A DNA stretch of 64,000 nucleotides, taken from NCBI GenBank assembly GCA_036339735.1, contig JAYZAL010000019.1, forward strand, positions 1 through 64,000, given 5' to 3'. The notes under the pieces are model-generated. The model did not search any database. It had not been told where the DNA came from and saw nothing but the letters and a program-made list of their open reading frames with translations. The DNA comes from Candidatus Poribacteria bacterium (GTDB taxonomy: Bacteria > Poribacteria > WGA-4E > UBA9662). Below are positions 9,313-61,792 of this stretch, piece after piece; the first letter of the stretch is position 1; every line of letters begins with the position of its first letter. A program made the translations under genes and the position numbers.

Positions 9313-11373
9313 TTAAACTGATTCTTCACACAAAAACAAATCAAGTTTTTTTTCTGCTGCGACAATAGAAATCTGTTCTTCAACTTGAGCATTTGGATAT
9401 CTTAGTGCCGCAGCCACTCCCATTAGGAGTGTCTCATAAGGCAAACCTTCTTGTTTACATAAGTTAATCGGTCCTAGTAACCGCTCGAATTTGCCCAACT
9501 TTCTCACCGGATCTCTTGCATTCCGTTCGATAGTATCACGGATGCTTTCATCCTGATACTTTGCTAAGGCTCGACGACACCATACCTCCTGATCGTCAGC
9601 ATCAAACCTATAAGCTGACACTAAAGCAGCGGAAGACTCCATTCCTGCCTGAAGTGCAATTTTTGCAATTTTGGAGTCATTTGCAGCGTCTGACAACCAT
9701 TGATACCCTTTCAGGTAACCTATGTAGGAAACCATAGCATTAACACAATTATATGTGAATAGTTTTCGGGTCAATTCTCTTTCGAAATCTGGCAAGGGTT
9801 CAAACCCTAAAACATCCGGCGTCGTTAATAGTGCATTACCATCCATAGGTAGAGTCCAGTGGTTTTGGATTTGAACCGTCATTGGAGGTTGGCTAGATGT
9901 CGGCTCAATACAAGAACGTAACACTTGAGCCTGAGAAACACCTAAGTTTTTTTCAATTAGTTGTTTTTCTTCATGATTAGCACCATCTAGAAGTGTTGTG
10001 CGAACTAATTCAGCAGGTCTTGGGTGATTCTCAGCGGTAATGATATCAATGGGACCATTACGAAGACGTTTACACAACATAGATCGAATACTATGTGCCC
10101 ATGTCTGCAAATAATTAGCTCCCATTGAAGTCATAAGCAAGGATGATTTCAACATCAAACTATCAATTTCTTGTGTGCTATGAATTACATCTTTGACTTT
10201 GACTTTTTGGAATTGTTGTGTGGATAAGTTATATACTTCCCATTGTTTCGATTGACTTAATTGCTTTACAGTAGGTAAATGAGAATCGACCAGTATTGTT
10301 TCCCAGCCGGACCTCATCAATAACTGTGCTAAAAACCCTCTACCTACTTTACCTGATCCGAATATAATTGCCAGCTTTGGTACCTTCGCCAGCTTGGCAA
10401 TTCCCAGAGCACTTACTTCCGATCCTGCCATAAATTTCGAATTCCTTGAACTAACAATCTCTGGTATGTTTGCTAGACCTCCACCAATCCACATTTCTAA
10501 TTTCGCAAATTGATCTCGGATGTTCATGATCGGTTGATTTATAACTTCTAAGCCTAAACTGACCTTAGCAGATGGTGTAGCGTTATAACTCAGAGATGGC
10601 AGTCGACCTATTGGAGGCAACCAACTCATTCCTTTGATATGTTTGCCTCCAACTTGTCCTACATGTTCAGTGGTATTGGCCAAGTTGAATAACACACCTT
10701 CGTGTGCCCCCAAACCTATAACACCTGCAGTAAGATCGTCACAACCACAAATCACTTCGGCTTTATGTCTAATACCAGATAGTCTTGCTCCTTCTGGTGA
10801 AACAGTTCCGATCACTTCCTCCGGTAACTTATAATGGCCTTCACCTGCGAAACCACGCATGGAACGAGAATCTCTAGCAACTACTCCTGTGAGCTGCCAG
10901 TTGTACATATCTTTCAGTTGGACTGCTACACCGTCTCCAATAGGACCATTTTCTTTTTCCCATTGTGCTACTCTGGAAGGAACCCAAAACCGAGTATTCG
11001 GCAAAATATGTTCTCCTTGAATCTCTCTAATACATTCGTCAGGTAATGGCTCAAACCAATTGATTATTCTCCCTTGAATTTGATTATCCCTAATCACAAC
11101 TACCGAAGGTCCATGTGTAGTTATACCTACACGGTCAATCTTTTCGCCTCTATTTCCTAGCCATTTCCTTAGGTTTTTCCAAAGTCCTTCTTCTGAAGGC
11201 CAAGAATGTAATTGCCAACTAGAATCATCAGCCAGTAGCAAAACTTTTGTAGCCGTTGTTCCGACATCGATTCCTAATGTTAAACGACCTTCTAATTTTT
11301 TTGAGGATATGGATTGGTTCTTTTTCATATCTTGGTAATAGCCATCATTATTTTTACTTTCTCTTTTCACCAA
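9313..11373 (-). CDS. Fusion of compact FGGY-type carbohydrate kinase and mannitol-1-phosphate 5-dehydrogenase-like domain
   Basis: N-terminal 'LGIDVGTTATK', 'GGGLAN', 'EVSALG'; C-terminal 'FGSGKVGRGF', 'RKLFTYN', 'RDPVRKL'; GGAGG RBS before TTG start. Confidence 0.8.
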   Translation of the reverse strand: MVKRESKNNDGYYQDMKKNQSISSKKLEGRLTLGIDVGTTATKVLLLADDSSWQLHSWPSEEGLWKNLRKWLGNRGEKIDRVGITTHGPSVVVIRDNQIQGRIINWFEPLPDECIREIQGEHILPNTRFWVPSRVAQWEKENGPIGDGVAVQLKDMYNWQLTGVVARDSRSMRGFAGEGHYKLPEEVIGTVSPEGARLSGIRHKAEVICGCDDLTAGVIGLGAHEGVLFNLANTTEHVGQVGGKHIKGMSWLPPIGRLPSLSYNATPSAKVSLGLEVINQPIMNIRDQFAKLEMWIGGGLANIPEIVSSRNSKFMAGSEVSALGIAKLAKVPKLAIIFGSGKVGRGFLAQLLMRSGWETILVDSHLPTVKQLSQSKQWEVYNLSTQQFQKVKVKDVIHSTQEIDSLMLKSSLLMTSMGANYLQTWAHSIRSMLCKRLRNGPIDIITAENHPRPAELVRTTLLDGANHEEKQLIEKNLGVSQAQVLRSCIEPTSSQPPMTVQIQNHWTLPMDGNALLTTPDVLGFEPLPDFERELTRKLFTYNCVNAMVSYIGYLKGYQWLSDAANDSKIAKIALQAGMESSAALVSAYRFDADDQEVWCRRALAKYQDESIRDTIERNARDPVRKLGKFERLLGPINLCKQEGLPYETLLMGVAAALRYPNAQVEEQISIVAAEKKLDLFLCEESV

Positions 11374-51728: not shown

Positions 51729-54338
51729 TTAATCTTCTATAGAAAATAGTACGTCTCCCCCGCCTGCTTTTTGATTGTAGATCTGCTTTAAAATAGTCAA
51801 CGAAGACAAAATCCAAATTGTTTTACTGGTTCTATCGGTTTCCCATTTGCGTCGACTAGAAAACCCTTTTTCTACATTGGAATCAGAATTCAGCATTTTC
51901 CTTAATCTTTTACTGAATTCTTTGAAGTCGCCTGTCCACTGATGATTTTGATCAGTTTTCTTAAGATAATCTCTGTACGAATTATAAACAAACTCTGTAT
52001 CTATAATTTCAGTTCCTTCTTTCCTGATTCGGATACTAGTACCAAACAAATCACTAGGTCCTGCAATCTCTTCCTTCTCAATACATTGTTCAAACCAACC
52101 TACCATTGGGTCACTTTCTCGTAATTGTTCATAATAAGTCAAAGTTATGACACGTTCCTTCGGAAAATCAAATCCATCTATATCCCTTCGCATCATTAGT
52201 TCGAAAAAAGCTTCTTTGCCTCCATTATTCCACTCATCGTCTATGGACTGAAAAAAATGGCTTTTTCTATCCGCTTGTTCCTTATTACGAATGTTTTCGG
52301 TCGCAAATTCTTCACTTACGTCAATAAATTGCCATCTACGGTCGCTCTCGGTTAAATACACAACCCAACTGTCATTAGAGGCACAAATTACCCTCGAATA
52401 ATTTGCATACTGAGTGGCATCAACAAATTTTTCCTCTACCGTTCGTTCACGTTCAGTGATCAACGATTTCATTTTTCCTACATCATTTCGATTACCACCC
52501 CAAACAGCTTCATCAGAAAATATCAGTAGGTTATCTCTCATCCAAGCATTAAATTTACCAGTTAATTTGTCAGCATCACCTGTTAAATGGAAATAGTGGG
52601 GACGAAATAACTTTCCTAACGTATCATTTATGAATTTCCCTTTACCTGTGCCTTCTTTACTCCGTAGTACAATACTACACACACGTGAGTGTTTCGCCGG
52701 ATTTTGAAACGCATCTGCTATCCAATTTAACAACCAGTCATATAACTTGTCGACTTTATGTGTATCTGTCTGATAAAAAGGTTCCCCACTGGTATCTGAA
52801 CCAACACGTTTTTTCTGATTTCCACAAATGACTTGTCGGATTAACTGCAAGTAGTTTTTACAATTATACTCAAGCTGTTGATTTGACAACCCTCTCATTC
52901 TTTGATAAATCTTAGGATTTAATTGCTTTACAAAACCACTCTTATCAGGATCCCCTCGCCAGTTATTATCTGGCGTTGCAGTTGACCAATCATCCCACAA
53001 ATTCCACTTATCTGAATTATTAGGGTTTTTCCTACCCGAAGGATCAAAAATGAGCCCCTGATAAGTTCGTCTTCCTTCCCAATCTAGCCACAAACTCGCC
53101 AATTTAGCTTTTCGGTTCTTATGTCTGACAGATTGTGGATTTAATAATTTAAAGTCTGACGGACGCATACCAACTCTTGGTACATGTGTTTGTTGAAGGT
53201 CATCATATTCTGTATGCATGATGCCAACTTTGCTACCTTGTTTTAAAACAGCATACTTATGATTCAACAATTGAAGTTGTTCTAAAACAATATCATCATA
53301 TTCAGTTTCGTTAGATGATTGCGTTACATCTCTATTTTTAATACCAAAATTTTGGCATAACTCATCTATAACATCTGGTAAAGACATATTGCTATTTTTC
53401 GCAATAAAGTCCATGGCATCTAGCACCTTACCGTGGCTACAACCAGAATGACACTTCCACTTATAAGTATCCATATTTATGTTTAAGGAAGGACGACTGG
53501 AACCTCGTCTTTCACCGTGTAAGGGACAAAACGTCACCATCCAATTACTACTGGTTATATTACCTCTCTCTACACCTTCAAAGATGTCTTCAAACTCTAG
53601 ATTAGATATCAAATTTTGATATCTCCATCCTTTTTGATAAGAGGATACTTGAAACTGAGTTATCTTTGGTGAGTTTGGTGATATTTTTTTCTGGTGTGAT
53701 TGGCTTGGTAAAATAGGTAATCGGTTATGTACATAATCCAAAATGGATTTACCTGATTGGTGAAAAATTTGGGCTTCAGTGATTTGATAACCAACTTCAG
53801 GAAAATCACCTGTAAAAATCCTAGCTAGATCTGTAGCATTTGTATCAAACCGTGAAATTCCATCCGGTCGACAATAGGATCCTACAATAGTTTGTATTGA
53901 TTGTTGATATTTATTTGGATCAGTTAACTCTTTTTGTAAGGGAAAATAAACATGAAACTTAGGTCTTGCAACACGTATACCTGAGTTACTACGCTTGTTT
54001 TTATTATGATTTTTTGATTCAACAATCCAAAACTCGTAATCTGAAAAATCTGTTTGAAATTGTTGAATAGTTGTCCAATCTTCAGGTTCATCCCATGCAG
54101 ATGTTGGTTGACCATCGTTGTCTATATCTAGTGCAATGACATCTGCACTTAGCCAATTATCAGTAGCACGTTCTTGGTTGTGGTAATGTCCCATCGCATG
54201 TACATAACGTACCGTTTCAATAAATTGTTCCTTTGTTTCTACTTGTTGTCGAACCGGCAATTGTCTTATATGCACAATATCGGTTTCATTTGCACGACAG
54301 AGATTAAAGGGAGTTATTGGCTTTGGGCTTGGAATCAT
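51729..54338 (-). CDS. Phage/plasmid-type primase-helicase (AEP-like + CHC2 Zn finger + SF3/DUF5906 helicase)
   Basis: 'IALDIDND', 'ESKNH', 'KFHVYFP'; 'CPLH..RPSL..WKCHSGC'; Walker A 'SKEGTGKG', Walker B 'IFSDE', 'EEKFVDA', 'DRRW'. Confidence 0.88.
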   Translation of the reverse strand: MIPSPKPITPFNLCRANETDIVHIRQLPVRQQVETKEQFIETVRYVHAMGHYHNQERATDNWLSADVIALDIDNDGQPTSAWDEPEDWTTIQQFQTDFSDYEFWIVESKNHNKNKRSNSGIRVARPKFHVYFPLQKELTDPNKYQQSIQTIVGSYCRPDGISRFDTNATDLARIFTGDFPEVGYQITEAQIFHQSGKSILDYVHNRLPILPSQSHQKKISPNSPKITQFQVSSYQKGWRYQNLISNLEFEDIFEGVERGNITSSNWMVTFCPLHGERRGSSRPSLNINMDTYKWKCHSGCSHGKVLDAMDFIAKNSNMSLPDVIDELCQNFGIKNRDVTQSSNETEYDDIVLEQLQLLNHKYAVLKQGSKVGIMHTEYDDLQQTHVPRVGMRPSDFKLLNPQSVRHKNRKAKLASLWLDWEGRRTYQGLIFDPSGRKNPNNSDKWNLWDDWSTATPDNNWRGDPDKSGFVKQLNPKIYQRMRGLSNQQLEYNCKNYLQLIRQVICGNQKKRVGSDTSGEPFYQTDTHKVDKLYDWLLNWIADAFQNPAKHSRVCSIVLRSKEGTGKGKFINDTLGKLFRPHYFHLTGDADKLTGKFNAWMRDNLLIFSDEAVWGGNRNDVGKMKSLITERERTVEEKFVDATQYANYSRVICASNDSWVVYLTESDRRWQFIDVSEEFATENIRNKEQADRKSHFFQSIDDEWNNGGKEAFFELMMRRDIDGFDFPKERVITLTYYEQLRESDPMVGWFEQCIEKEEIAGPSDLFGTSIRIRKEGTEIIDTEFVYNSYRDYLKKTDQNHQWTGDFKEFSKRLRKMLNSDSNVEKGFSSRRKWETDRTSKTIWILSSLTILKQIYNQKAGGGDVLFSIED

Positions 54339-54869: not shown

Positions 54870-55517
54870 CTACTGTAAAAGTATTCTACTAATTTGACTA
54901 GGGTTAAACTTATTTCCTTTTCCATTTGTATATCCCTTTTCTTCTAATAAATCGGCAATTTTCCTCAGTGAAAAGCTCTTCTTTCTTAAACACTTAACTT
55001 TTTCAACAAGTACCGTATCTATTTCTTTATAAGACTTTCTACCACCAACTTTCCCTCTTCCACGTAGATCTAAATTACCTTCCGTAACACTTTTCCTACG
55101 TCTACGTCTACGTCCAGTTTCCAGTTTTAGCCCAGGTTTTTGGTAGATGCTAATAATTTGCAAAAGTTGCTGAGTTTCTATATCTAGTTGGTCCTCACCA
55201 GTAGCGTAAATTAAAAAAAGCCCGTATTCTCTCAAAAGATTGGTAGCTAGTCCACGCTCTAAGGGATTTGGACAGAAAACCTTTGGGCTATGACAGACTA
55301 TTGTTGAAATGTTCTTTTCTTCGGTGAGTTGTAGTAAGTTACGAAATGTCTTTCTCTGTACTACAGCAACATTTTCCGCATCACGATCGATAAGATGTTT
55401 TCCTTGGGAAGTCCAACCGTGTTGCCTAAGGAATTTGTTAATCTGACGTTTTTGATCAAGTGGAATTTCGTTTCCTTGTGCTAAGGGATGGTAAACGATA
55501 ACTTGTTTATTAGCCAT
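54870..55517 (-). CDS. Degenerate resolvase/serine-recombinase-like protein with C-terminal HTH
   Basis: Resolvase-like layout ('R..F..LL', 'GR..VGGRKSY', 'SLRKIADLL..KGY...G.KF.PSQISRIL'); the YxRxS catalytic motif is replaced by 'YHPLA'; start at MANKQ with AAGGA RBS. Confidence 0.65.
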   Translation of the reverse strand: MANKQVIVYHPLAQGNEIPLDQKRQINKFLRQHGWTSQGKHLIDRDAENVAVVQRKTFRNLLQLTEEKNISTIVCHSPKVFCPNPLERGLATNLLREYGLFLIYATGEDQLDIETQQLLQIISIYQKPGLKLETGRRRRRRKSVTEGNLDLRGRGKVGGRKSYKEIDTVLVEKVKCLRKKSFSLRKIADLLEEKGYTNGKGNKFNPSQISRILLQ

Positions 55518-55600
55518 GTTGAATCTATCCTTACGGTTTTCTACCGACATATGGATACGACAACAACAAGTAAAAGGTTTCAGAAAAAGTTTCATATATA

Positions 55601-55675: not shown

Positions 55676-56677
55676 TTACAAATCCGATATTAGAATTTCA
55701 CGTCCTTCTTTAGCACTCAGAACAGCAGCAAAAACCATAGACATAGACTTTAGATTATCTGCAGCATTACATTCAGGTTCTCGGTCCTCTTTAATCGCGC
55801 GAACAAATTCGTTAAGAACGGGATTTGGACCATCAATATCATCTAGATCGACTTGTTTGCGTATTGTTGGGTTTTGTCGATGATTAAGTGTCTGATAAAG
55901 ATCAAATCCTTCCCAAGTCAAAGTACCTTTTGGTCCTTCATATCGCCATTCACCGTTATGTCCAGCAGGAACATGTCCCATTGTACACCCAATACCTCGA
56001 TGGGTTGCAAATACACCATTTTCGAATTTAAAAAGAATTATCTGACAAGCATCGCCCTGATGCCAACCCCAAGGCAAATTCCAAGTGATGGCTTGGGCAC
56101 TAATTGGATCAACTCCTAATGTATATCTCATCATATCAAAATGATGAATTCCCATATCTGTCAGGAACATGTATGGTTCTGTCACATAATGGCTTCCTGG
56201 GCTATCAGCCCAATTTACATATAGTGAGACATCTAATTGTGCGATTTCACCAATTTTATGATCTTCTATTAATCTTCGGGTTGTACGAGGTAGAGCGTTG
56301 AACCGGTAGTTTTGAGTAATCATGTGTTTGACATTAGCACTTTCGCCTGCAGATACAATACGTTTAGCTGCATCAAAATCATCACTCAAAGGTTTTTCAC
56401 CAAGTAAGTGCAAACCTAGATCAAAAGATTTCATTGCAATAGCTTCATGTACAGATGGCGGAGTAACATCAACAACGAAATCAGCCCCAAAACTCTGGGG
56501 TACATCGTTCAGATCTGCGAAAATTTTATTTTCTGGTATTCCCCTTTGATCAATAGCTCTTTGACGATTTTTCTCCGATGCTTCCACGTAGGCAACAAGT
56601 TCCACTTCCTTATGATCTTCACAAGCCGATAACCAGTGGTAGCCTCGACCGCCAAGTCCGACAAGGATTGCTTTCAT
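55676..56677 (-). CDS. Gfo/Idh/MocA family oxidoreductase
   Basis: 'LVGLGGRG', 'GEKPL', 'DMGIHHFD'. Confidence 0.93.
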   Translation of the reverse strand: MKAILVGLGGRGYHWLSACEDHKEVELVAYVEASEKNRQRAIDQRGIPENKIFADLNDVPQSFGADFVVDVTPPSVHEAIAMKSFDLGLHLLGEKPLSDDFDAAKRIVSAGESANVKHMITQNYRFNALPRTTRRLIEDHKIGEIAQLDVSLYVNWADSPGSHYVTEPYMFLTDMGIHHFDMMRYTLGVDPISAQAITWNLPWGWHQGDACQIILFKFENGVFATHRGIGCTMGHVPAGHNGEWRYEGPKGTLTWEGFDLYQTLNHRQNPTIRKQVDLDDIDGPNPVLNEFVRAIKEDREPECNAADNLKSMSMVFAAVLSAKEGREILISDL

Positions 56678-56863
56678 AGTAACTCCTAAGTCCTAAGATC
56701 CATTTAAACAGTCAGCGATTATAACATCGATTCAAGCAACCAACAACAGCGAATTTAAGTAGAAAAGCTGGCAAATGTTTAAAAAAATCGTTATATTTCA
56801 TTGGGTCTATTTTAGAGAGTCAGCCATAGACATTTGTCTGCCTAAACACAAGAAGAAAAAATT

Positions 56864-59158
56864 TTGATTAGTGTAAAAAATAAAAGATTATTTATCATAT
56901 TTCTACTGTCATCAGTGATTGCCCTTGAAACCTATTCTAGTGAAATAAGGGGGAGAGTTCTTCGCCAAGGTTCACAAGAACTGGTTAGTGGAGTAATTGT
57001 GAAAGTTTTGGGAACGGATCAAAAATTTATAACCGATGATCAGGGAGAATTTGAAATAACTGAACTACCAACTGGAACTTATCAATTAACCTTGACAAGA
57101 TTCCGTTTTCGTTCAAAAACAATTGAAGTCTTGGTACTTGACGATCAACCCCTCGATTTAGACGTTCGGCTAGAAAGAATCGATTTCATCTTCGACGAAA
57201 TAGTTGTGAGGGGGCAGCTTTTAACCGAATCGGTCAGTCGTCAAAGTGTGACTGGATTAGAAATAAAGCGTATACCGGGTGCTGGTGGAGATGCGTTGAG
57301 AGCTATCCAAGCTTTACCAGGTATCAAGGCTGGTGCAGATTTCGGAGGTCAACTTTATGTCCGTGGTGGTGGACCAGAAGATAATCAGATCTATTTTGAT
57401 CGTTATCCCTTGGCTAATGCTTATCATTTCGGAGGTTTAGTTTCAACTGTAAGTTCTGAAATTCTACAACGGATTGATATCTATGCTGGTGGATTTGGAG
57501 CTGAATATGGTCAGGATTCGCAGGCAATAATAGATATTTATTCGCGACCTGGTAATCGTAAGAACTTCAGTGGCAAAGTGAATTTAAATATTCTTTATGC
57601 TGAAGGACTGATAGAAGGTCCACTAGGGGAATCAGGGTCTTGGTATTTTGCAGGTCGTCGTAGTTATTTTGACCTTTTTCCGTTAGAAAGAGTAATAACG
57701 GTTATAACAGCATTCCCTAGATTCTGGGATTATCAAACACGATTTAACTACGAAATAAACGAGAAATACCAAATAGATTTTACAGCATTTGCAGCTGATG
57801 ATTTTGCAGAATTGGCTTTTACAGAAGAACAGCAAGATGAAGAAGAACTAAGAGGTGCCTTATACATAAAGAATTCGGCACATGTTCAAGGCTTCCACCT
57901 CCGTGCTTTGCTTACCCCACGCCTAACCTACGATTTTAATCTTTCTCACAACAAACAATTAGTAAATTTCAAGATTGGTCAAGGATTCTTCCTTCGTATA
58001 CAACCTGACGTGTATGATGTTAGACATGATGTAGTATATGAAATTTCGCCCAATGTACGTTTAGAAACAGGTTTGTTAAATTCAATTGGTGACGTTGTCG
58101 TTCAGCTGTTTTTTCCTAATCCTCCGGAAGAGGGAGATCCGAATTACGATTTTTTAGAAGCCGAAAAGAATAGAGTTGATACACAACAGGAAGATTATCA
58201 AGTGGAAGGCTACGTTCAAACACGTTTTACTCTTGGGGAATACCTATCCTTTGCATTAGGAACTCGAGTCGATTATTCTGCAGATTTAACAGCTCAGCCA
58301 ACGCCTCAACCACGTTTAAGTTTTAATTTAACAATGCCAGGATTACCACAATTAAGATTAGCTTACGGCCGTTATATGCAAACACCGCAGCCACCTCAGT
58401 TTTTTGAACCTGGGGGGAATCCAGAACTTGAGGAAAGTCTCTCAGACCATTTTATCCTAGAAATCGAAAGAGCTTTTGAAAATGGTACAGTGCTCAAGGC
58501 TGCTGGTTATCGTAAGCAGTTGGATAAACAGATTGAACCTGATCCTGAGGAAAATCCAGTAAAAAATAAGAATTACCTCAATATTGGAGAAGGTTACGCA
58601 CAAGGTGTCGAATTCTTACTCCAATATCGTCAAGGAGATCGATTTTTCGGTTGGTTGAGTTATGCAAGGTCTGTTTCCAAAAGAAGGGACGATCCAGATC
58701 AAGATTACCGATTTTATTCCTATGACCAAACACATATTGCAACTATCATCGCCAGCTACAAATTTACCAAGACATTTGAGATTGGAGGAAGATGGCAGTA
58801 TGCCACGGGAAACCCCTACACACCATTAACCTGTGAAGAAAATATTAGCAATCCATGTTACGAAAATATTATCAGTCCGAGAGATGGAAAAACTAGAAAA
58901 GTACCTCTCTATGGATCAATAAATTCTTTCCGTGTAGAACCATTTCATCGTCTCGATGTGAGAATCAGCAAAAATTTTGTTTTTGATACTTGGCAAATTG
59001 GAACCTACCTAGAATTAATAAATGCCTATAATCGAAAAAATGTCCTTCAGTTTAGCTATGACGACGAGTATGAACGCGACAAGGATGGAGAAGTGAAGAA
59101 AGACATAGTAGGACAGTTACCATTGCTACCTTATTTCGGAGTAATCATTGAGTTTTAA
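56864..59158 (+). CDS. TonB-dependent receptor with N-terminal carboxypeptidase-regulatory-like domain
   Basis: Signal peptide, 'DEIVVRG', plug 'DALRAIQALPGI..YVRGG..DN', 'AGGFGAEYG', 'NAYNRKN', terminal Phe. Confidence 0.93.
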   Translation: MISVKNKRLFIIFLLSSVIALETYSSEIRGRVLRQGSQELVSGVIVKVLGTDQKFITDDQGEFEITELPTGTYQLTLTRFRFRSKTIEVLVLDDQPLDLDVRLERIDFIFDEIVVRGQLLTESVSRQSVTGLEIKRIPGAGGDALRAIQALPGIKAGADFGGQLYVRGGGPEDNQIYFDRYPLANAYHFGGLVSTVSSEILQRIDIYAGGFGAEYGQDSQAIIDIYSRPGNRKNFSGKVNLNILYAEGLIEGPLGESGSWYFAGRRSYFDLFPLERVITVITAFPRFWDYQTRFNYEINEKYQIDFTAFAADDFAELAFTEEQQDEEELRGALYIKNSAHVQGFHLRALLTPRLTYDFNLSHNKQLVNFKIGQGFFLRIQPDVYDVRHDVVYEISPNVRLETGLLNSIGDVVVQLFFPNPPEEGDPNYDFLEAEKNRVDTQQEDYQVEGYVQTRFTLGEYLSFALGTRVDYSADLTAQPTPQPRLSFNLTMPGLPQLRLAYGRYMQTPQPPQFFEPGGNPELEESLSDHFILEIERAFENGTVLKAAGYRKQLDKQIEPDPEENPVKNKNYLNIGEGYAQGVEFLLQYRQGDRFFGWLSYARSVSKRRDDPDQDYRFYSYDQTHIATIIASYKFTKTFEIGGRWQYATGNPYTPLTCEENISNPCYENIISPRDGKTRKVPLYGSINSFRVEPFHRLDVRISKNFVFDTWQIGTYLELINAYNRKNVLQFSYDDEYERDKDGEVKKDIVGQLPLLPYFGVIIEF

Positions 59159-59562
59159 TGGCTAAATTAACGTCGAGCAGACTAGTTTCCCGAATAACCT
59201 TTCTTTTTCTTTCATTTCAAATTTTTTGTTTGCTCTCCTGTTCTGTGTTTGGTGGAAATTCATGTGGGGGGTTAGAAGATTTGGGTCAGTCTGCCCCAAA
59301 TGATTGCTGCCCTTATCATACATCCAATTCCACAGAAAAGTGTTGTTGGAAAACTGTAGTTATTACAGATCAAAAAAAGCCTCTTAAAATCTCTACGTCT
59401 GGTAACCAAAAAGGGTCTACATTTTTAGCATCTAGTCAAAGTGTGTTGGAGAGACAAAAGCTTGAGGGTCAAATTTGTTTTGTTTTTGTTTTGATTCCTC
59501 ATATTTCTTCAAAAGAATCACTATCCTTACCAAATCGATCGCCTCCTATCTCCATAATTTGA
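59158..59562 (+). CDS. Cys-rich leader protein ending in RSPP (DUF2946/CruR-like putative arrest peptide)
   Basis: N-terminal hydrophobic segment, two CC pairs (DCCPYH, KCCW), C-terminal 'LPNRSPPISII'; ATG overlaps the receptor stop (TAATG). Confidence 0.75.
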   Translation: MAKLTSSRLVSRITFLFLSFQIFCLLSCSVFGGNSCGGLEDLGQSAPNDCCPYHTSNSTEKCCWKTVVITDQKKPLKISTSGNQKGSTFLASSQSVLERQKLEGQICFVFVLIPHISSKESLSLPNRSPPISII

Positions 59563-59621
59563 GTTTTGTTGATGAGTAAAATGAAAATTATGAAAAAACG
59601 ACCTAAGCTATTATGGAGATA
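59547..59621 (+). promoter_or_regulatory. Shine-Dalgarno-sequestering stem (translational attenuator)
   Basis: TATCTCCATAAT (59547-59558) is the exact reverse complement of ATTATGGAGATA (59610-59621), which contains the GGAG RBS of the ATG at 59626. Confidence 0.8.
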
Positions 59622-59625
59622 ATAA

Positions 59626-60681
59626 ATGAAAGATAGAAAAAAGTGGATCTTGTTGGCAATATTGTTTTTTATTTTAAATTCGATACCATATGTCATTGCT
59701 CAAGATGCTTGAGGTGCCTGAAGTAACCCCATAATCCCTGAAATGGGGCCGAGCCGTGAGCTCGATATAGAAACGAAGAAAAAATTTCGATTCACTTTTA
59801 ACGTCACACGTTCTTTCAATGCAGAAGGTGGACATAGTGAAACAGGCGGATTGACAACCGATGGTCGACTAATCGAAATTGGAAACCATTGGCATCACGT
59901 GTCTATGTCAATGAGCCGTTTTAATTTAGGACTGCATTACCAATTAAATCCTCGAACTAAGCTAGCACTAGTCTTACCATATAGTATTAAAAATCAGTCA
60001 GCTGAAATTGAATGGGAAGCCTCAAACCCAAGTGTGAGTGACCAGGATGCAGCTATCCGGAATGGTTATATCCATCATAGAGATGAAACATATCGTGGGT
60101 TTGAAGATCTGAATTTAACGACTAACTACCACTGGAATGGGTTTACATCTATAAAAAACGACAGAATTACTCTGTCTGCTGGGTTGTCTATACCAACGGG
60201 TAAAATTGAACCTGATCCATATAAGCTCGGCGACGTAGGAAAAAAACATTTACATCTGCAGTTTGGTACAGGAACACTAACTCCAAGTTTCCAAGTTATC
60301 TACATATTGCCAGTAAACGATTTGCTGTCGGTACAATCTCGGTTATCATTTCGACGTCCCTTCTACGAAAACAAGTATAGTTTTCTGTCTCCTCCAGAAA
60401 CAAGTACCTATTTTGGTATAGCATTAAAAGTCTCGAATATCCTGAGATTACATGGGTCTTGGATGGTATTTAGGCAAGGATTTGGGTATTGGGATGGAAA
60501 TAGAGATCGAAATACTGGTATGCAAATGCATGCTTTACAATTGGGAACAAACACAACAATTGGTCGAAAAACCCCTTTAAATATTAGCGTAATTGTACCT
60601 ATCCATCAACAAATGCTTAGTACGGGGGATACATTCGAGCATGGTATTCTATTGTCGTCTAGTGTTTCTCATGTCTTTTAA
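59626..60681 (+). CDS. Putative selenoprotein (UxxU) outer-membrane beta-barrel transporter, 351 aa
   Basis: GGAG RBS and ATG 59626 give MKDRKKWILLAILFFILNSIPYVIAQDA*GA*SNPIIPEMGPS..., in frame with the listed ORF at 59743; TGA at 59710 and 59719; 'GLSIPTG', 'LQFGTGT', terminal Phe. Confidence 0.8.
59727..59764 (+). promoter_or_regulatory. Candidate bacterial SECIS hairpins
   Basis: CCCCAT/ATGGGG stem (59727-59748) and CGAGC/GCTCG stem (59750-59764) just 3' of the two TGA codons. Confidence 0.45.
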
Positions 60682-60692
60682 AACTAACTAAA

Positions 60693-60722
60693 TTGACAGT
60701 CAGAGGTCTGAATTGTTAGAAT
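60693..60722 (+). promoter_or_regulatory. Sigma70 promoter
   Basis: TTGACA-18-TAGAAT with extended TG. Confidence 0.65.
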
Positions 60723-60784
60723 GGGATAGTTTATGGGAAGCCATTTGGCAGTTTAGGTCAGGCAATGAAAATTAAGGAGTTTCT

Positions 60785-61792
60785 ATGGCAGATGTTATTC
60801 GTGGTGGAGTGATAGGATATGGTGGTGCTTTTAATATGGGGCGTAGCCATGCTGGGAGTATGCAAAACACTGAAGGTATAGAATGCGTGGCAATTTGCGA
60901 CATTGACCCAGAACGTACTAAAGCCGCTAAAGAAGATTTTCCACAAGTTCGTACTTACAACGACAGTGATGATTTTTTTGCTGACGAAAGCATTGATTTA
61001 GTAACTATTGTTCTGCCTCACAATTTACATGCTCCTGTGGCTATTCAAGCACTTAATGCTGGTAAGCATGCAATAACTGAAAAACCGATGTGCATTACAG
61101 TATCAGAAGCGACTTCGATGATTGAGTCAGCAAAATCTAATGGAAAAATGTTATCGGTTTATCACAATCGGCGTTGGGATCAAGATTTTTGGACATTAAA
61201 GGGTATAATAGAGAGTGGTGTTATTGGTAGACCGCACACGATTGAAATGCGTGCTAGTGGTTATGGTCGGCCGAACCCAGATTGGTGGAGAAGTGTAAAG
61301 TCTGTTTCGGGTGGTATCATATATGACTGGGGGGCACACTATATCGACTGGCTACTAAACGTAGTTGATAATAAAATGATCAGTGTAACCGGATTTTATA
61401 TTGATAATGAAGTCTGGACAGATATTAGTAATGAAGATCATGCACGTGCGTTCATTCGATTTGACGGAGACTTAGTAGCTGACGTGGAATTTTCCCAGAT
61501 CGCTAAAATTGGAGGAGATCGATGGAAGATCTTAGGTACCCATGGGGCAATTCAATCCGCAGATGGCCATTTCAAAGTGTGGTCAGAAATCGAAAATCAG
61601 CAAAGTGAACAAGAAATCTCATATCAAGGTCGCCCAGGCCATAGTTTCTATCAAAATATTGTAGCTCACCTCAGAGAGAATGAACCATTAATAGTTACAC
61701 CAGAGTCTGCTCGACGGGTAATTGCTGTAATGGATTTGGCTGAGAGGTCAGCGAAGTCGCATCAAGCTGAAACCGTACCTTACGAATTTTAA
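60785..61792 (+). CDS. Gfo/Idh/MocA family oxidoreductase
   Basis: 'GVIGYGG', 'TEKPM', 'HNRRWD', 'DWGAHYID'. Confidence 0.93.
   Translation: MADVIRGGVIGYGGAFNMGRSHAGSMQNTEGIECVAICDIDPERTKAAKEDFPQVRTYNDSDDFFADESIDLVTIVLPHNLHAPVAIQALNAGKHAITEKPMCITVSEATSMIESAKSNGKMLSVYHNRRWDQDFWTLKGIIESGVIGRPHTIEMRASGYGRPNPDWWRSVKSVSGGIIYDWGAHYIDWLLNVVDNKMISVTGFYIDNEVWTDISNEDHARAFIRFDGDLVADVEFSQIAKIGGDRWKILGTHGAIQSADGHFKVWSEIENQQSEQEISYQGRPGHSFYQNIVAHLRENEPLIVTPESARRVIAVMDLAERSAKSHQAETVPYEF

What the first reader, a model, noticed from the sequence alone, without database searches (positions are those of the whole stretch)
56864..60681. Candidate new system: TonB receptor, RSPP arrest leader and UxxU seleno-barrel as a metal-responsive outer-membrane uptake operon
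Seen: three co-directional, closely spaced genes; the leader has Cys pairs and a terminal RSPP; a 12-bp stem links the leader's end to the next RBS; the last gene has two in-frame TGA codons in CxxC spacing and His clusters (GGHSE, NHWHHV, IHHRDE). Established: DUF2946 leaders such as Bordetella CruR and Rhodobacter CutF carry Cys motifs and a RAPP-type tail and control downstream copper-related genes. Inference: ribosome stalling, metal sensing and selenocysteine recoding together control one soft-metal (Cu/Ni/Hg-like) outer-membrane channel. I do not know of this combination being described.
Basis: partly seen in the sequence, partly recalled or inferred. Interest (0 to 1): 0.92.

Follow-up and report, generated by a model that had tools for sequence, protein, structure and literature searches.

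The report
Two-selenocysteine outer-membrane barrel with arrest-type leader
A marine Poribacteria-like bacterium encodes an outer-membrane channel protein that starts with two selenocysteines. A small cysteine-rich upstream gene looks built to switch the channel on by stalling the ribosome, probably in response to copper-like metals.

Summary
Three co-directional genes are present. The 134-aa middle ORF has Cys pairs and RSPP, four residues before its stop rather than terminal. A 12-bp stem joins the codons just after RSPP to the next gene's Shine-Dalgarno. The third gene (59626-60681) has a signal peptide, then U-G-A-U from two in-frame TGAs.

The selenoprotein reading is strongly supported:
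- The TGA pair is conserved across Poribacteria (80 of 80 loci keep the second TGA).
- Homologues elsewhere carry CxxC at the same positions.
- Two covarying hairpins follow the UGAs in Sec forms but not in Cys-only forms.
- selA, selB and a Sec-containing selD are in the genome.

The protein models as a 12-stranded COG4313/FapF-like barrel with invariant histidines. It matches no Pfam or NCBIfam family. Relatives sit beside HMA-thioredoxin, MerT, ArsR and P-type ATPase genes.

The leader is a real family (invariant Cys and R-x-P-P) and is not DUF2946. In the same genome and in relatives it precedes multicopper-oxidase operons, as CutF does. Arrest itself is untested.

The TonB receptor is linked only within the genus, and uptake as the direction is not supported.

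Earlier notes of this scan report what appear to be the same barrel family in other phyla. The leader coupling is new here.

The parts
56864..59158 (+). TonB-dependent-receptor-like gene (764 aa). Its stop overlaps the leader's start (TAATG).
   Evidence: Pfam CarbopepD_reg_2 6e-13 and Plug 5e-9. Weak TIGR01783 match. Orthologues adjoin the leader and barrel only in G001 and G002.
59158..59562 (+). Leader-type small ORF (134 aa). It has an N-terminal hydrophobic signal-like segment, Cys motifs and R127-S-P-P130, followed by ISII and the stop.
   Evidence: 24-member family alignment A3 with invariant C36, C50, C62, C63, R127, P129, P130. Found in 34 of 41 related genomes. No DUF2946 hit.
59536..59547 (+). 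Codons for R-S-P-P, the proposed ribosome arrest site.
   Evidence: Invariant R-x-P-P in A3. RSPP/RAPP/RGPP are rare in this genome: 6 in all six-frame ORFs of 100 aa or more. RAPP-like motifs as arrest cores: PMC12992588, passages read.
59547..59558 (+). 5' arm of the 12-bp stem (anti-Shine-Dalgarno), inside the last codons of the leader.
   Evidence: strand folding: MFE -18.5, z -3.0. In the duplex test 0 of 115 other leader windows pair as well.
59610..59621 (+). 3' arm of the stem, containing the barrel gene's Shine-Dalgarno GGAG (59615-59618).
59626..60681 (+). Barrel selenoprotein gene (351 codons including two Sec). Signal peptide 59626-59700.
   Evidence: Translation with TGA=U. Homologues in 32 of 41 related genomes. 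AF2 model pLDDT 78, pTM 0.75, 12 strands. Foldseek top hits FapF 5o67 and COG4313 channel 4rl8.
59710..59712 (+). First Sec codon (TGA, residue 29).
   Evidence: Aligned to U in 60 and C in 20 of 80 Poribacteria loci. C in CPAC homologues.
59719..59721 (+). Second Sec codon (TGA, residue 32).
   Evidence: TGA in 80 of 80 Poribacteria loci. Cys in CPAC/CxxC homologues elsewhere.
59727..59748 (+). Hairpin 1 after the UGAs (CCCCAU / 10-nt loop / AUGGGG). Its loop starts 23 nt after UGA1 and 14 nt after UGA2.
59750..59764 (+). Hairpin 2 (CGAGC / CGUGA / GCUCG). In most relatives it is an 8-bp stem with a GUU loop.
   Evidence: RNAalifold compensatory pairs. CM alignment counts.

Best explanation
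Gene 59626-60681 encodes a secreted 12-stranded outer-membrane beta-barrel of the COG4313/FapF fold class. After signal-peptide cleavage its flexible periplasmic N-terminus begins ...QDA-Sec-Gly-Ala-Sec-Ser-Asn-Pro. Both UGA codons are read as selenocysteine by SelB/tRNA-Sec, directed by one or both of two hairpins that follow them.

The Sec-x-x-Sec pair (CxxC in relatives) is a soft-metal-binding or redox-active tip. Together with a set of invariant histidines and acidic residues, whose position in the barrel I could not inspect, it lets the protein bind a thiophilic metal (Cu(I)-like here, Hg(II)-like in relatives that sit in mer-type clusters) and pass it across the outer membrane.

In this genus its synthesis is gated by the preceding 134-aa ORF. 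This ORF is exported, Cys-rich and ends in R-S-P-P-ISII. When a ribosome pauses at RSPP it covers the anti-SD arm (59547-59558) and frees the barrel's Shine-Dalgarno. When the ribosome finishes and leaves, the 12-bp stem re-forms and blocks initiation.

By analogy with CutF, metal binding to the nascent exported Cys motifs prolongs the pause. The barrel would then be made when periplasmic metal is high, and only if selenium is available.

Shown: gene structure, conservation, Sec/Cys pairing, Sec-specific RNA structure, fold class, gene contexts and the stem. Inferred: Sec insertion itself, arrest, the metal's identity and the direction of transport.
For: Selenoprotein:
- Of 44 full-length homologues in 41 related genomes, 39 carry 2 and 5 carry 1 in-frame TGA.
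- 20 of 20 extracted genes read signal peptide + AQ[DE][SA]-[U/C]-x-A-U-SNP.
- 80 Poribacteria loci: UGAU 60, CPAU 16, CGAU 3, CSAU 1.
- 67 metagenome loci: CPAC 21, UGAU 19, UPAU 15, CPAU 3, CSAU 1, no motif 8.
- Full-length database members show CPAC/CAAC/CAGC at the same place. Close members are truncated just after the TGAs.
- The genome holds selD (with its own Sec), selA and selB, all above the curated cut-offs.

RNA:
- Two hairpins follow the UGAs. The CM alignment of 82 sequences has 91.9% of cells paired, against at most 52.4% when the partners are slid. 8 of 14 pairs carry compensatory changes, and 0 of 500 shuffles reach the covariation score.
- Against synonymous-codon nulls the window has z -3.3 (1 of 200). 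The median z over 73 sequences is -1.9, against -0.6 for a control region.
- Sec forms (n=30) have median dG -23.2 and z -2.5. Cys-only forms (n=15) have dG -11.8 and z -0.1.

Fold: model; FapF, Pput2725.

Metal context:
- An HMA+thioredoxin ORF lies directly upstream in 35 of 59 metagenome loci (CPAC 20 of 21, UPAU 13 of 15).
- MerT-HMA, ArsR, CsoR-like, a pyridine-nucleotide disulphide reductase and a P1B ATPase lie nearby.
- P0016 is a barrel-HMA fusion.

Leader:
- The family has invariant Cys and R-x-P-P.
- A paralogue in the same genome (hhalign probability 90.9%) precedes DUF3347-like, OEP and Tat-multicopper-oxidase genes.
- The same gene order occurs in G020, where the gene products were scanned against Pfam; ORF sizes and order look alike in G029 and G039, whose gene products were not scanned apart from one unrelated ORF.
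- Stem.
- The CutF mechanism and RAPP-like arrest motifs are in print (PMC9973294 passages; 10.1101/2025.02.05.636593 abstract; PMC12992588 passages).

Expression: RNA-library contigs of three studies cover the locus, including the leader-barrel junction.
Against: - No tRNA-Sec was found. The best Rfam RF01852 hits fall below the gathering score and are tRNA-Ser/Leu. Aragorn finds only 34 tRNAs, so the assembly is incomplete.
- No Rfam family matches the hairpins.
- How two UGAs 9 nt apart are served is unknown. Hairpin 2 lies further from the UGAs than the spacing I recall for classical bacterial SECIS elements.
- The synonymous-codon test is moderate: only 11 of 73 sequences beat all 200 nulls.
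- The CM alignment is fitted to the structure it then counts.
- The leader adjoins the barrel in 24 of 81 loci only.
- The SD-masking stem is clear in 4 of those 24 (WIN, L038, L061, L084). It is missing in L039 of the same genus and in all 16 CPAU-type loci, which have 179-425-nt spacers.
- RSPP is described only as a partially permissive substitution in ApdA/ApdP (PMC12992588).
- In print, CutF's own proline-rich sequence alone was not a strong staller (PMC9973294).
- This genome shows no MerT and no HMA-thioredoxin fusion.
- I could not inspect where the histidines sit in the model.
- Contigs from RNA libraries cannot prove transcription or co-transcription.
Confidence: 0.6

Rival explanations
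1. The 134-aa ORF is a working periplasmic or membrane Cys-rich metal-binding protein (a chaperone or partner of the barrel and of the copper-oxidase operons), not a regulatory leader. On this reading R-x-P-P is a structural or sorting motif, and the stem is incidental or only couples translation weakly.
For: - The ORF is long for a leader (124-172 aa).
- It has six conserved cysteines.
- It is widespread as a single-copy-like gene: 38 matches in 34 of 41 genomes.
- The stem is absent from 20 of 24 barrel-linked copies.
- The Atlas feature search puts it near DUF6769 transmembrane proteins (score 0.95, 141 shared features, a lead only).
Against: - The invariant R-x-P-P sits 2-9 residues from the stop in very divergent members.
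- The motif is very rare in this genome.
- SD-masking stems that start at or just after the RxPP codons appear in three separate lineages or operons.
- CutF (reported not detectable in cells although required) is likewise a full-size exported protein (PMC9973294).
Confidence: 0.25
2. The barrel is mainly a redox protein or enzyme, such as an outer-membrane diselenide/disulphide oxidoreductase or a histidine-metal hydrolase that uses the Sec pair catalytically. On this reading it is not a metal conduit, and the metal-gene neighbourhoods reflect thiol stress.
For: - Most known bacterial selenoproteins are redox enzymes (PMC9312934, passages).
- The conserved partner outside Poribacteria contains a thioredoxin domain.
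- Seven invariant His plus Glu/Asp residues resemble an active site.
Against: - The partner also carries an HMA metal-binding domain.
- One barrel is fused to HMA.
- The neighbours are metal transporters and metal sensors.
- The fold class is that of channels.
- A UxxU variant of an HMA metal-binding protein is already catalogued (NF041115, in the table of PMC13188914).
Confidence: 0.12
3. The TGAs are true stops. On this reading a 28-codon mini-ORF (59626-59712) precedes a separate 312-aa gene starting at ATG 59743, or the gene is a pseudogene.
For: - This is what table 11 ORF calling gives.
- It is how public predictions read it: database entries of 288-313 aa.
- No tRNA-Sec is in the assembly.
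Against: - The 312-aa product would be an outer-membrane barrel without a signal peptide.
- Frame, signal peptide and the motif around both TGAs are conserved in 100 loci of the order/phylum.
- Cys stands at exactly these codons in other lineages.
- The hairpins are specific to Sec forms.
- ATG 59743 lies inside hairpin 1.
Confidence: 0.02

Closest known systems
COG4313 outer-membrane channels (Pfam PF13557 Phenol_MetA_deg; Pput2725, PDB 4rl8) and FapF (PDB 5o67)
   Same: Predicted 12-stranded barrel with N-terminal extension. Foldseek E 1e-12 to 2e-13, TM 0.59 (query) and 0.72-0.75 (target). One distant homologue, P0127, gives a sub-threshold PF13557 hit (E 0.0026).
   Different: The window protein gives no PF13557 hit at E up to 1; sequence identity to the structures is 10-13%. 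Conserved features of the barrel family here are the N-terminal Sec/Cys-x-x-Sec/Cys-[SRTGQ]-N-P tip and the invariant His set; I did not check the structures for them. The gene context is metal homeostasis.
CutF of Rhodobacter capsulatus and CruR of Bordetella (DUF2946 metal-sensing leaders)
   Same: [quoted passage not shown] The same leader family also precedes multicopper-oxidase operons, as cutF precedes cutO.
   Different: No detectable DUF2946 homology. The Cys pattern is different (C..C, CC, CC instead of CxxxC). Here the leader is the middle gene, start-overlapping a TonB receptor. The controlled gene is a selenoprotein barrel. No experimental data.
RAPP-type arrest peptides (ApdA, ApdP, SecM RAGP; RAPP/RGPP small uORFs upstream of TonB-related and Cu-related genes, PMC12992588)
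   Same: R-[AGSP]-P-P a few residues before the stop of a small signal-bearing protein, with a co-directional downstream gene.
   Different: The window has RSPP, described there only as partially permissive. The family members also use RGPP, RAPP and RPPP. Arrest is untested.
Catalogued bacterial selenoproteins with UxxU (HMA-type metal-binding protein NF041115; Prx-like; FmdB-like) and the outer-membrane barrel selenoprotein GSU2204/MtrB-PioB family NF041027
   Same: Two Sec in a UxxU motif that replaces a metal-binding CxxC. An outer-membrane barrel can be a selenoprotein (tables in PMC13188914 and PMC9312934).
   Different: Different folds and families. The window protein hits no NCBIfam model at E up to 1. 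The term searches I ran in the two reviews turned up no entry that resembles it.
PcoB/CopB-type outer-membrane copper-resistance proteins (recalled, not tested here)
   Same: An outer-membrane barrel encoded with copper-detoxification genes and presumably induced by metal.
   Different: No sequence or fold comparison was made here. This is a lead from memory only.

Membership tests
Bacterial UGA-Sec selenoprotein | In-frame TGA aligned with Cys in homologues | tested here: met
   CPAC/CAAC/CAGC in full-length database members. 21 CPAC loci against 38 Sec-bearing loci in metagenomes. First position U in 60 and C in 20 of 80 loci.
Bacterial UGA-Sec selenoprotein | Coding conservation on both sides of the TGA | tested here: met
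   Signal peptide upstream and SNP.IP plus barrel downstream in 20 of 20 and 80 of 80 loci.
Bacterial UGA-Sec selenoprotein | SECIS-type hairpin shortly downstream of the UGA | tested here: met
   Two hairpins with compensatory changes. They are stronger than synonymous nulls and are present in Sec forms but not in Cys-only forms. There is no Rfam match, and which hairpin serves which UGA is unresolved.
Bacterial UGA-Sec selenoprotein | Sec machinery in the genome (selA, selB, selD, tRNA-Sec) | tested here: inconclusive
   selD 359 bits, selA 579 bits and selB 362 bits are all over their cut-offs. tRNA-Sec was not found, and the assembly holds only 34 tRNAs at 92% completeness.
Bacterial UGA-Sec selenoprotein | Selenium actually incorporated | not testable with these tools
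   Needs 75Se labelling or mass spectrometry.
COG4313 / PF13557 channels | Match to the family HMM above the gathering score | tested here: not met
   No hit at E up to 1 for the window protein. P0127 scores 18.3 bits against a cut-off of 22.
COG4313 / PF13557 channels | 12-stranded barrel fold like Pput2725 | tested here: met
   AF2 model with 12 strands. Foldseek 4rl8: E 1e-12, TM 0.75 by target.
DUF2946 (CutF/CruR) | Match to PF11162 | tested here: not met
   No hit for the window ORF or for any of the 24 family members at E up to 1. No hit in the own genome at E up to 10. Weak hits in relatives lie elsewhere.
DUF2946 (CutF/CruR) | Signal sequence, Cys motif in the mature part, C-terminal proline-rich motif | tested here: met
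   Sequence. Invariant C36, C50, C62, C63, R127, P129, P130. The signal peptide is judged by eye only.
DUF2946 (CutF/CruR) | Upstream of metal-homeostasis genes, with a stem-loop masking the next SD | tested here: met
   Window stem. Paralogue before DUF3347-like, OEP and a Tat multicopper oxidase. The same order in relatives. The stem is seen in only 4 of 24 barrel-linked copies.
RAPP-type arrest peptides | Ribosome stalls at the motif | not testable with these tools
   Needs toeprinting, a PURE system or reporter assays.
TonB-dependent receptor (first gene) | Plug domain plus 22-strand barrel | tested here: inconclusive
   Plug PF07715 5e-9 and CarboxypepD_reg domains. No PF00593 barrel hit was listed at E up to 1. 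Only weak TIGR01783/01785 matches. No structure was predicted.

The most novel reading that the evidence does not exclude
Synthesis of an outer-membrane metal channel is an AND gate of two trace-element signals. Soft-metal stress is sensed co-translationally by an exported R-x-P-P arrest leader that unmasks the Shine-Dalgarno. Selenium supply is read at two UGA codons within the first 32 codons. The resulting periplasmic Sec-x-x-Sec tip acts as a selenolate trap that hands Cu(I)/Hg(II)-type ions to a histidine-lined 12-stranded pore. This would be the first dedicated outer-membrane component of thiophilic-metal handling and the first arrest-peptide-controlled selenoprotein.
Probability: 0.25. 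Interest if true: 0.85.

Novelty: new variant of a known kind. Interest (0 to 1): 0.72.

Why it matters
**A missed selenoprotein family.** The barrel family is widespread. There are 249 confirmed relatives in one-genome-per-species contigs, the best 80 of them all from Poribacteria, and 480 representative clusters at E up to 1e-3. Gene callers truncate it consistently. It is missing from Pfam and NCBIfam, and I did not find it in the two selenoprotein reviews I searched. Recognising it would correct many annotations and add a two-Sec outer-membrane protein to the selenoproteome.

**An outer-membrane step in metal handling.** Its neighbours (HMA-thioredoxin, MerT, MerA-like, ArsR, CsoR-like, P1B ATPase) point to an outer-membrane step in mercury/copper handling. 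As far as I recall, no dedicated outer-membrane protein is known for that step.

**A testable natural example.** The leader gives a case of an R-x-P-P arrest-type module outside DUF2946. In Poribacteria it controls both copper-oxidase operons and a selenoprotein. The idea that CutF-like sensing is a general, convergently evolved strategy can be tested with simple reporters.

Tried and rejected
- **DUF2946 membership of the leader: rejected.** Scans of the ORF, of 24 family members, of the own genome and of 40 relatives gave nothing at the locus.
- **Alternative genetic code (TGA as sense genome-wide): rejected.** TGA ends 404 of 1838 long ORFs, and only tRNA-Trp(CCA) is found.
- **TonB receptor as a conserved partner: rejected beyond the genus**.
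- **A universally conserved neighbourhood for Poribacteria barrels: not found.** The commonest neighbours are an aldo-keto-reductase-like ORF (22 of 81) and an ABC-type substrate-binding protein and permease (17 of 81). These are judged by eye only.
- **RNAalifold on the ungapped alignment.** It missed hairpin 1 because its register shifts between clades. A covariance model solved this.
- **Rfam scan of 59100-59900.** Only chance-level hits.
- **Promoter and terminator scans.** Uninformative: 11 promoter-like sites against 12 expected, and no terminator on the + strand.
- **tRNA-Sec search.** Negative in an incomplete tRNA set.
- **Own-genome search for an HMA-thioredoxin fusion and for MerT.** Neither was found, with this query and family, at 92% completeness.
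- **ESM Atlas on the full-length barrel.** The call was not accepted, so no Atlas view of the barrel exists. The Atlas view of the leader gives only a DUF6769-like lead.
- **First metagenome query.** The 12-sequence alignment had no stretch conserved enough. A 4-sequence alignment worked.
- **RNA-library contigs.** They show presence only, not expression level, transcript ends or co-transcription.
- **Not done.** No complex prediction was run. Supplementary files of the papers were not seen. The SSN and uORF tables of PMC9973294 and PMC12992588 might already list Poribacteria leaders.

Full report
**What is there.** The window holds three co-directional genes.
- A 764-aa TonB-receptor-like gene lies at 56864-59158. 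It has CarboxypepD_reg and Plug domains.
- A 134-aa ORF lies at 59158-59562. Its ATG overlaps the receptor's stop.
- A third gene follows 63 nt later. Under table 11 it is listed as 59743-60681.
- Read from ATG 59626 with TGA as U, the third gene gives MKDRKKWILLAILFFILNSIPYVIA-QDA-U-G-A-U-SNP.... This is a typical signal peptide followed by two in-frame TGAs, at 59710-59712 and 59719-59721.
- The small ORF has Cys pairs and R127-S-P-P130. ISII follows, so RSPP is near-terminal, not terminal.
59547-59558 pairs with 59610-59621, which contains the GGAG of the third gene. MFE is -18.5 kcal/mol, z -3.0, and 1 of 200 shuffles folds as well.

**The organism reads UGA as Sec at some sites and as stop otherwise.**
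- The window's assembly is 4.32 Mb, 107 contigs and 92% complete.
- It contains selD, selA and selB above their curated cut-offs.
- selD itself carries an in-frame TGA in SCAGUASK, followed by a small hairpin.
- No tRNA-Sec was found, but only 34 tRNAs are assembled.
- TGA terminates 404 of 1838 ORFs of 300 aa or more, so a recoded genome is excluded.
- Named relatives that carry the same gene are all Candidatus Poribacteria.

**The TGA pair is conserved and aligns with Cys.**
- In 41 related genomes, 32 have a homologue. Of the 44 full-length matches, 39 contain two TGAs and 5 contain one.
- All 20 genes I extracted read signal peptide + AQ[DE][SA]-[U/C]-x-A-U-SNP. 18 are UGAU and 2 have C at the first position.
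- In the 80 best loci from one-genome-per-species contigs the motif is UGAU in 60, CPAU in 16, CGAU in 3 and CSAU in 1. The second position is TGA in 80 of 80.
- A profile search of 1.84 billion representatives found 480 proteins at E up to 1e-3.
- The closest of these start just after the TGAs, which shows truncated gene calls.
- The full-length ones carry CPAC, CAAC, CAGC or CSGC at the same place.
- In 67 metagenome loci the motif is CPAC in 21, UGAU in 19, UPAU in 15, CPAU in 3, CSAU in 1 and absent from 8 partial loci.
- An independent DNA contig and RNA-library contigs from three studies carry both TGAs unchanged.

**RNA structure.**
- Immediately after the second UGA nearly every Sec form folds into two tandem hairpins.
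- In the window these are 59727-59748 (CCCCAU / 10-nt loop / AUGGGG) and 59750-59764.
- RNAalifold on the ungapped alignment recovered hairpin 2 with four compensatory pairs. It missed hairpin 1 because its register shifts between clades.
- A covariance model built from 20 sequences matched once in each of 80 sources and twice in L045.
- On that alignment 91.9% of 1148 cells pair, against at most 52.4% when the partners are slid.
- 8 of 14 pairs show changes on both sides, in 88 cells.
- 0 of 500 shuffles reach the covariation score. 22 of 500 reach the count of compensatory pairs.
- This alignment is fitted to the model, which favours the structure.
- Against nulls that keep the protein but redraw synonymous codons, the window scores z -3.3 (1 of 200). 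The median over 73 distinct sequences is -1.9, against -0.6 for a control region of the same genes.
- The sharpest control compares forms within the metagenome set. Sec forms (n=30) have median dG -23.2 and z -2.5. Cys-only CPAC forms (n=15) have -11.8 and -0.1.
- UPAU genes of other lineages build the same two hairpins from unrelated sequences.
- Rfam has no match.
- Hairpin 1's loop starts 23 nt after UGA1. This resembles the 21 nt I read off the same genome's selD. Hairpin 2 is further away.
- How the two UGAs share these elements is open.

**What the protein is.**
- No Pfam or NCBIfam family matches it at E up to 1.
- AlphaFold2 with the 20-sequence alignment gives a 12-stranded barrel (pLDDT 78, pTM 0.75). 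Residues 19-31 and 40-47 have low confidence, so the Sec tip is flexible.
- Foldseek places it with FapF and the COG4313 channel Pput2725, at TM 0.72-0.75 normalised by target.
- One distant member gives a sub-threshold PF13557 hit.
- H70, H88, H90, H150, H151, H208 and H210 and several Glu/Asp residues are invariant in the 20 homologues. Most remain invariant in the Cys forms.
- The C-terminus ends in Phe or Leu, as in outer-membrane proteins.

**Context outside Poribacteria.**
- 35 of 59 metagenome loci have, about 70 nt upstream, a secreted ~219-aa protein with an HMA domain and a thioredoxin domain. By motif type this is CPAC 20 of 21, UPAU 13 of 15 and UGAU 2 of 19.
- Nearby genes include a MerT-HMA fusion, an ArsR-family regulator and a CsoR-type repressor.
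- They also include a 448-aa pyridine-nucleotide disulphide oxidoreductase (MerA-like by position), a P1B ATPase and an ACR3-type (SBF family) carrier.
- One homologue is fused to a C-terminal HMA domain.
- This supports a thiophilic-metal role.
- The window's own genome shows no MerT and no HMA-thioredoxin fusion. It does have a P1B ATPase and small HMA proteins.

**The small ORF is a real, conserved family.**
- In 24 of 81 Poribacteria loci (window included) a 124-172-aa ORF lies just upstream of the barrel.
- Its only invariant positions are C36, C50, C62, C63, R127, P129 and P130.
- The tails read RSPPISII, RPPPLSYS, RAPPIFLS, RGPPFLQC and RAPPHSLLQSSHI.
- All 16 CPAU barrels have such an ORF.
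- A profile of the family finds 38 matches in 34 of 41 related genomes. Only 8 of these adjoin a barrel.
- A second copy exists in the same genome at C38:33520-33942, with tail PRSPPFSYLS and hhalign probability 90.9%.
- That copy precedes a DUF3347-like protein, an outer-membrane efflux protein and a Tat-signal multicopper oxidase.
- The same order occurs in G020 (Pfam-confirmed) and, judged by ORF sizes and order, in G029 and G039.
- In that operon too, the RSPP codons pair with the next gene's GGAGA in the MFE fold, although the whole 194-nt fold is not exceptional (z -0.8).
- R[AGS]PP occurs only six times in all six-frame ORFs of 100 aa or more in this genome. Two of the three small ORFs that have it near the C-terminus are these leaders.

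**Comparison with print.**
- The stem-loop that follows masks the SD of the multicopper oxidase gene cutO. Copper binding to nascent CutF prolongs stalling and opens the stem (PMC9973294, passages; 10.1101/2025.02.05.636593, abstract).
- RAPP and RGPP are versatile arrest cores, and RSPP is partly permissive.
- Such motifs cluster near the C-termini of small signal-bearing proteins upstream of TonB-related and Cu-related genes (PMC12992588, passages).
- The Poribacteria leader has this architecture and this association, but it is not a DUF2946 member by HMM.
- The stem is not universal. A pairing between the stall window and the SD that beats, or nearly beats, every other window of the leader is found in four loci. 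These are the window (0 of 115), L038 (0 of 107), L061 (0 of 136) and L084 (9 of 148).
- It is not found in the other 20 loci. These include L039 of the same genus and the CPAU group, which instead has 179-425-nt spacers and a conserved hairpin right after the stop.

**The TonB receptor.** Orthologues occur in all 41 genomes. They adjoin the leader and barrel only in G001 and G002 of the same genus. In G004 and beyond they are on other contigs or megabases away. The receptor is therefore a local neighbour, perhaps co-translated through the TAATG overlap. It is not a defining part of a system.

**Verdict.**
The barrel is a UxxU selenoprotein tied to soft metals and preceded by an arrest-type leader. 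The leader is CutF-like in design but is not DUF2946.
- The three-gene 'operon' is genus-specific.
- By the CutF logic the barrel should be switched on by excess metal. That fits detoxification or controlled passage better than uptake.
- Sec insertion, arrest, the metal's identity and the direction of transport are all inferred.

**Novelty.**
- I found no description in print. The searches were 'Poribacteria + selenocysteine', 'selenoprotein/outer membrane/UXXU', 'COG4313 + selenocysteine' and a five-term search.
- The passages my term searches returned from the tables of the 2022 and 2026 reviews list UxxU only for Prx-like, HMA-type and FmdB-type proteins. They list an outer-membrane barrel selenoprotein only for the MtrB/PioB family.
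- Supplements were not visible.
- Earlier notes of this scan report what appear to be the same barrel family in Marinimicrobia, Acidobacteria and soil and sediment bacteria. I did not compare sequences. On that reading the barrel is not new to the scan.

Noticed in passing
G000:C38:29875-33942 (locus L194), outside the window: A second leader-family ORF (140 aa, 8 Cys, tail PRSPPFSYLS) lies upstream of a DUF3347-like protein, an OEP outer-membrane efflux protein and a Tat-signal multicopper oxidase. This is a CutF/CutO-like copper operon in the same genome.
   Followed up: yes
G000:C5:30088-30264, outside the window: An HMA-domain-like frame (E 2.3e-4) has one in-frame TGA. It may be another metal-binding selenoprotein.
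   Followed up: no
G000:C70:27515-28441 (locus L001): The genome's selD is itself a selenoprotein (SCAGUASK) with a short hairpin about 14 nt after the UGA.
   Followed up: partly
L045:8019-8117 and 10590-10688: One Poribacteria genome has two barrel copies about 2.5 kb apart. Each has the UGA-hairpin element.
   Followed up: no
P0016 (database protein, 442 aa): A CPAC-type barrel is fused to a C-terminal HMA domain (PF00403, 5e-11).
   Followed up: partly
L064, L071, L078, L079, L086, L089 and other CPAU-type loci, just after the leader stop: A conserved hairpin lies directly after the leader's stop codon, followed by 179-425-nt spacers before the barrel and another conserved hairpin near its start. 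This may be a different regulatory device, such as termination control, in this subgroup.
   Followed up: no
L197, L198, L200 (G013, G022, G016): Here leader-family genes precede three secreted proteins. One has a sub-threshold (per-domain) YtkA-like match and one a weak FMN_bind hit. This is a third kind of operon under this leader.
   Followed up: partly
window 51729-54338 (-) and 54870-55595 (-): An 869-aa ORF that looks like a primase/helicase-type mobile-element protein and a 241-aa ORF lie a few kb upstream of the locus. Neither was analysed.
   Followed up: no
window 55676-56677 (-) and 60785-61792 (+): The three-gene cluster is flanked on both sides by what look like Gfo/Idh/MocA-type oxidoreductase ORFs (by eye, not scanned). 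A strong promoter-like site at 60693-60722 (11 of 12, with TG) precedes the downstream one.
   Followed up: no
window 56700-60800: Near-identical DNA is held by marine and seawater metagenome runs: 14 rows hold at least half of the sampled words. RNA-library contigs of three studies cover parts of all three genes.
   Followed up: partly
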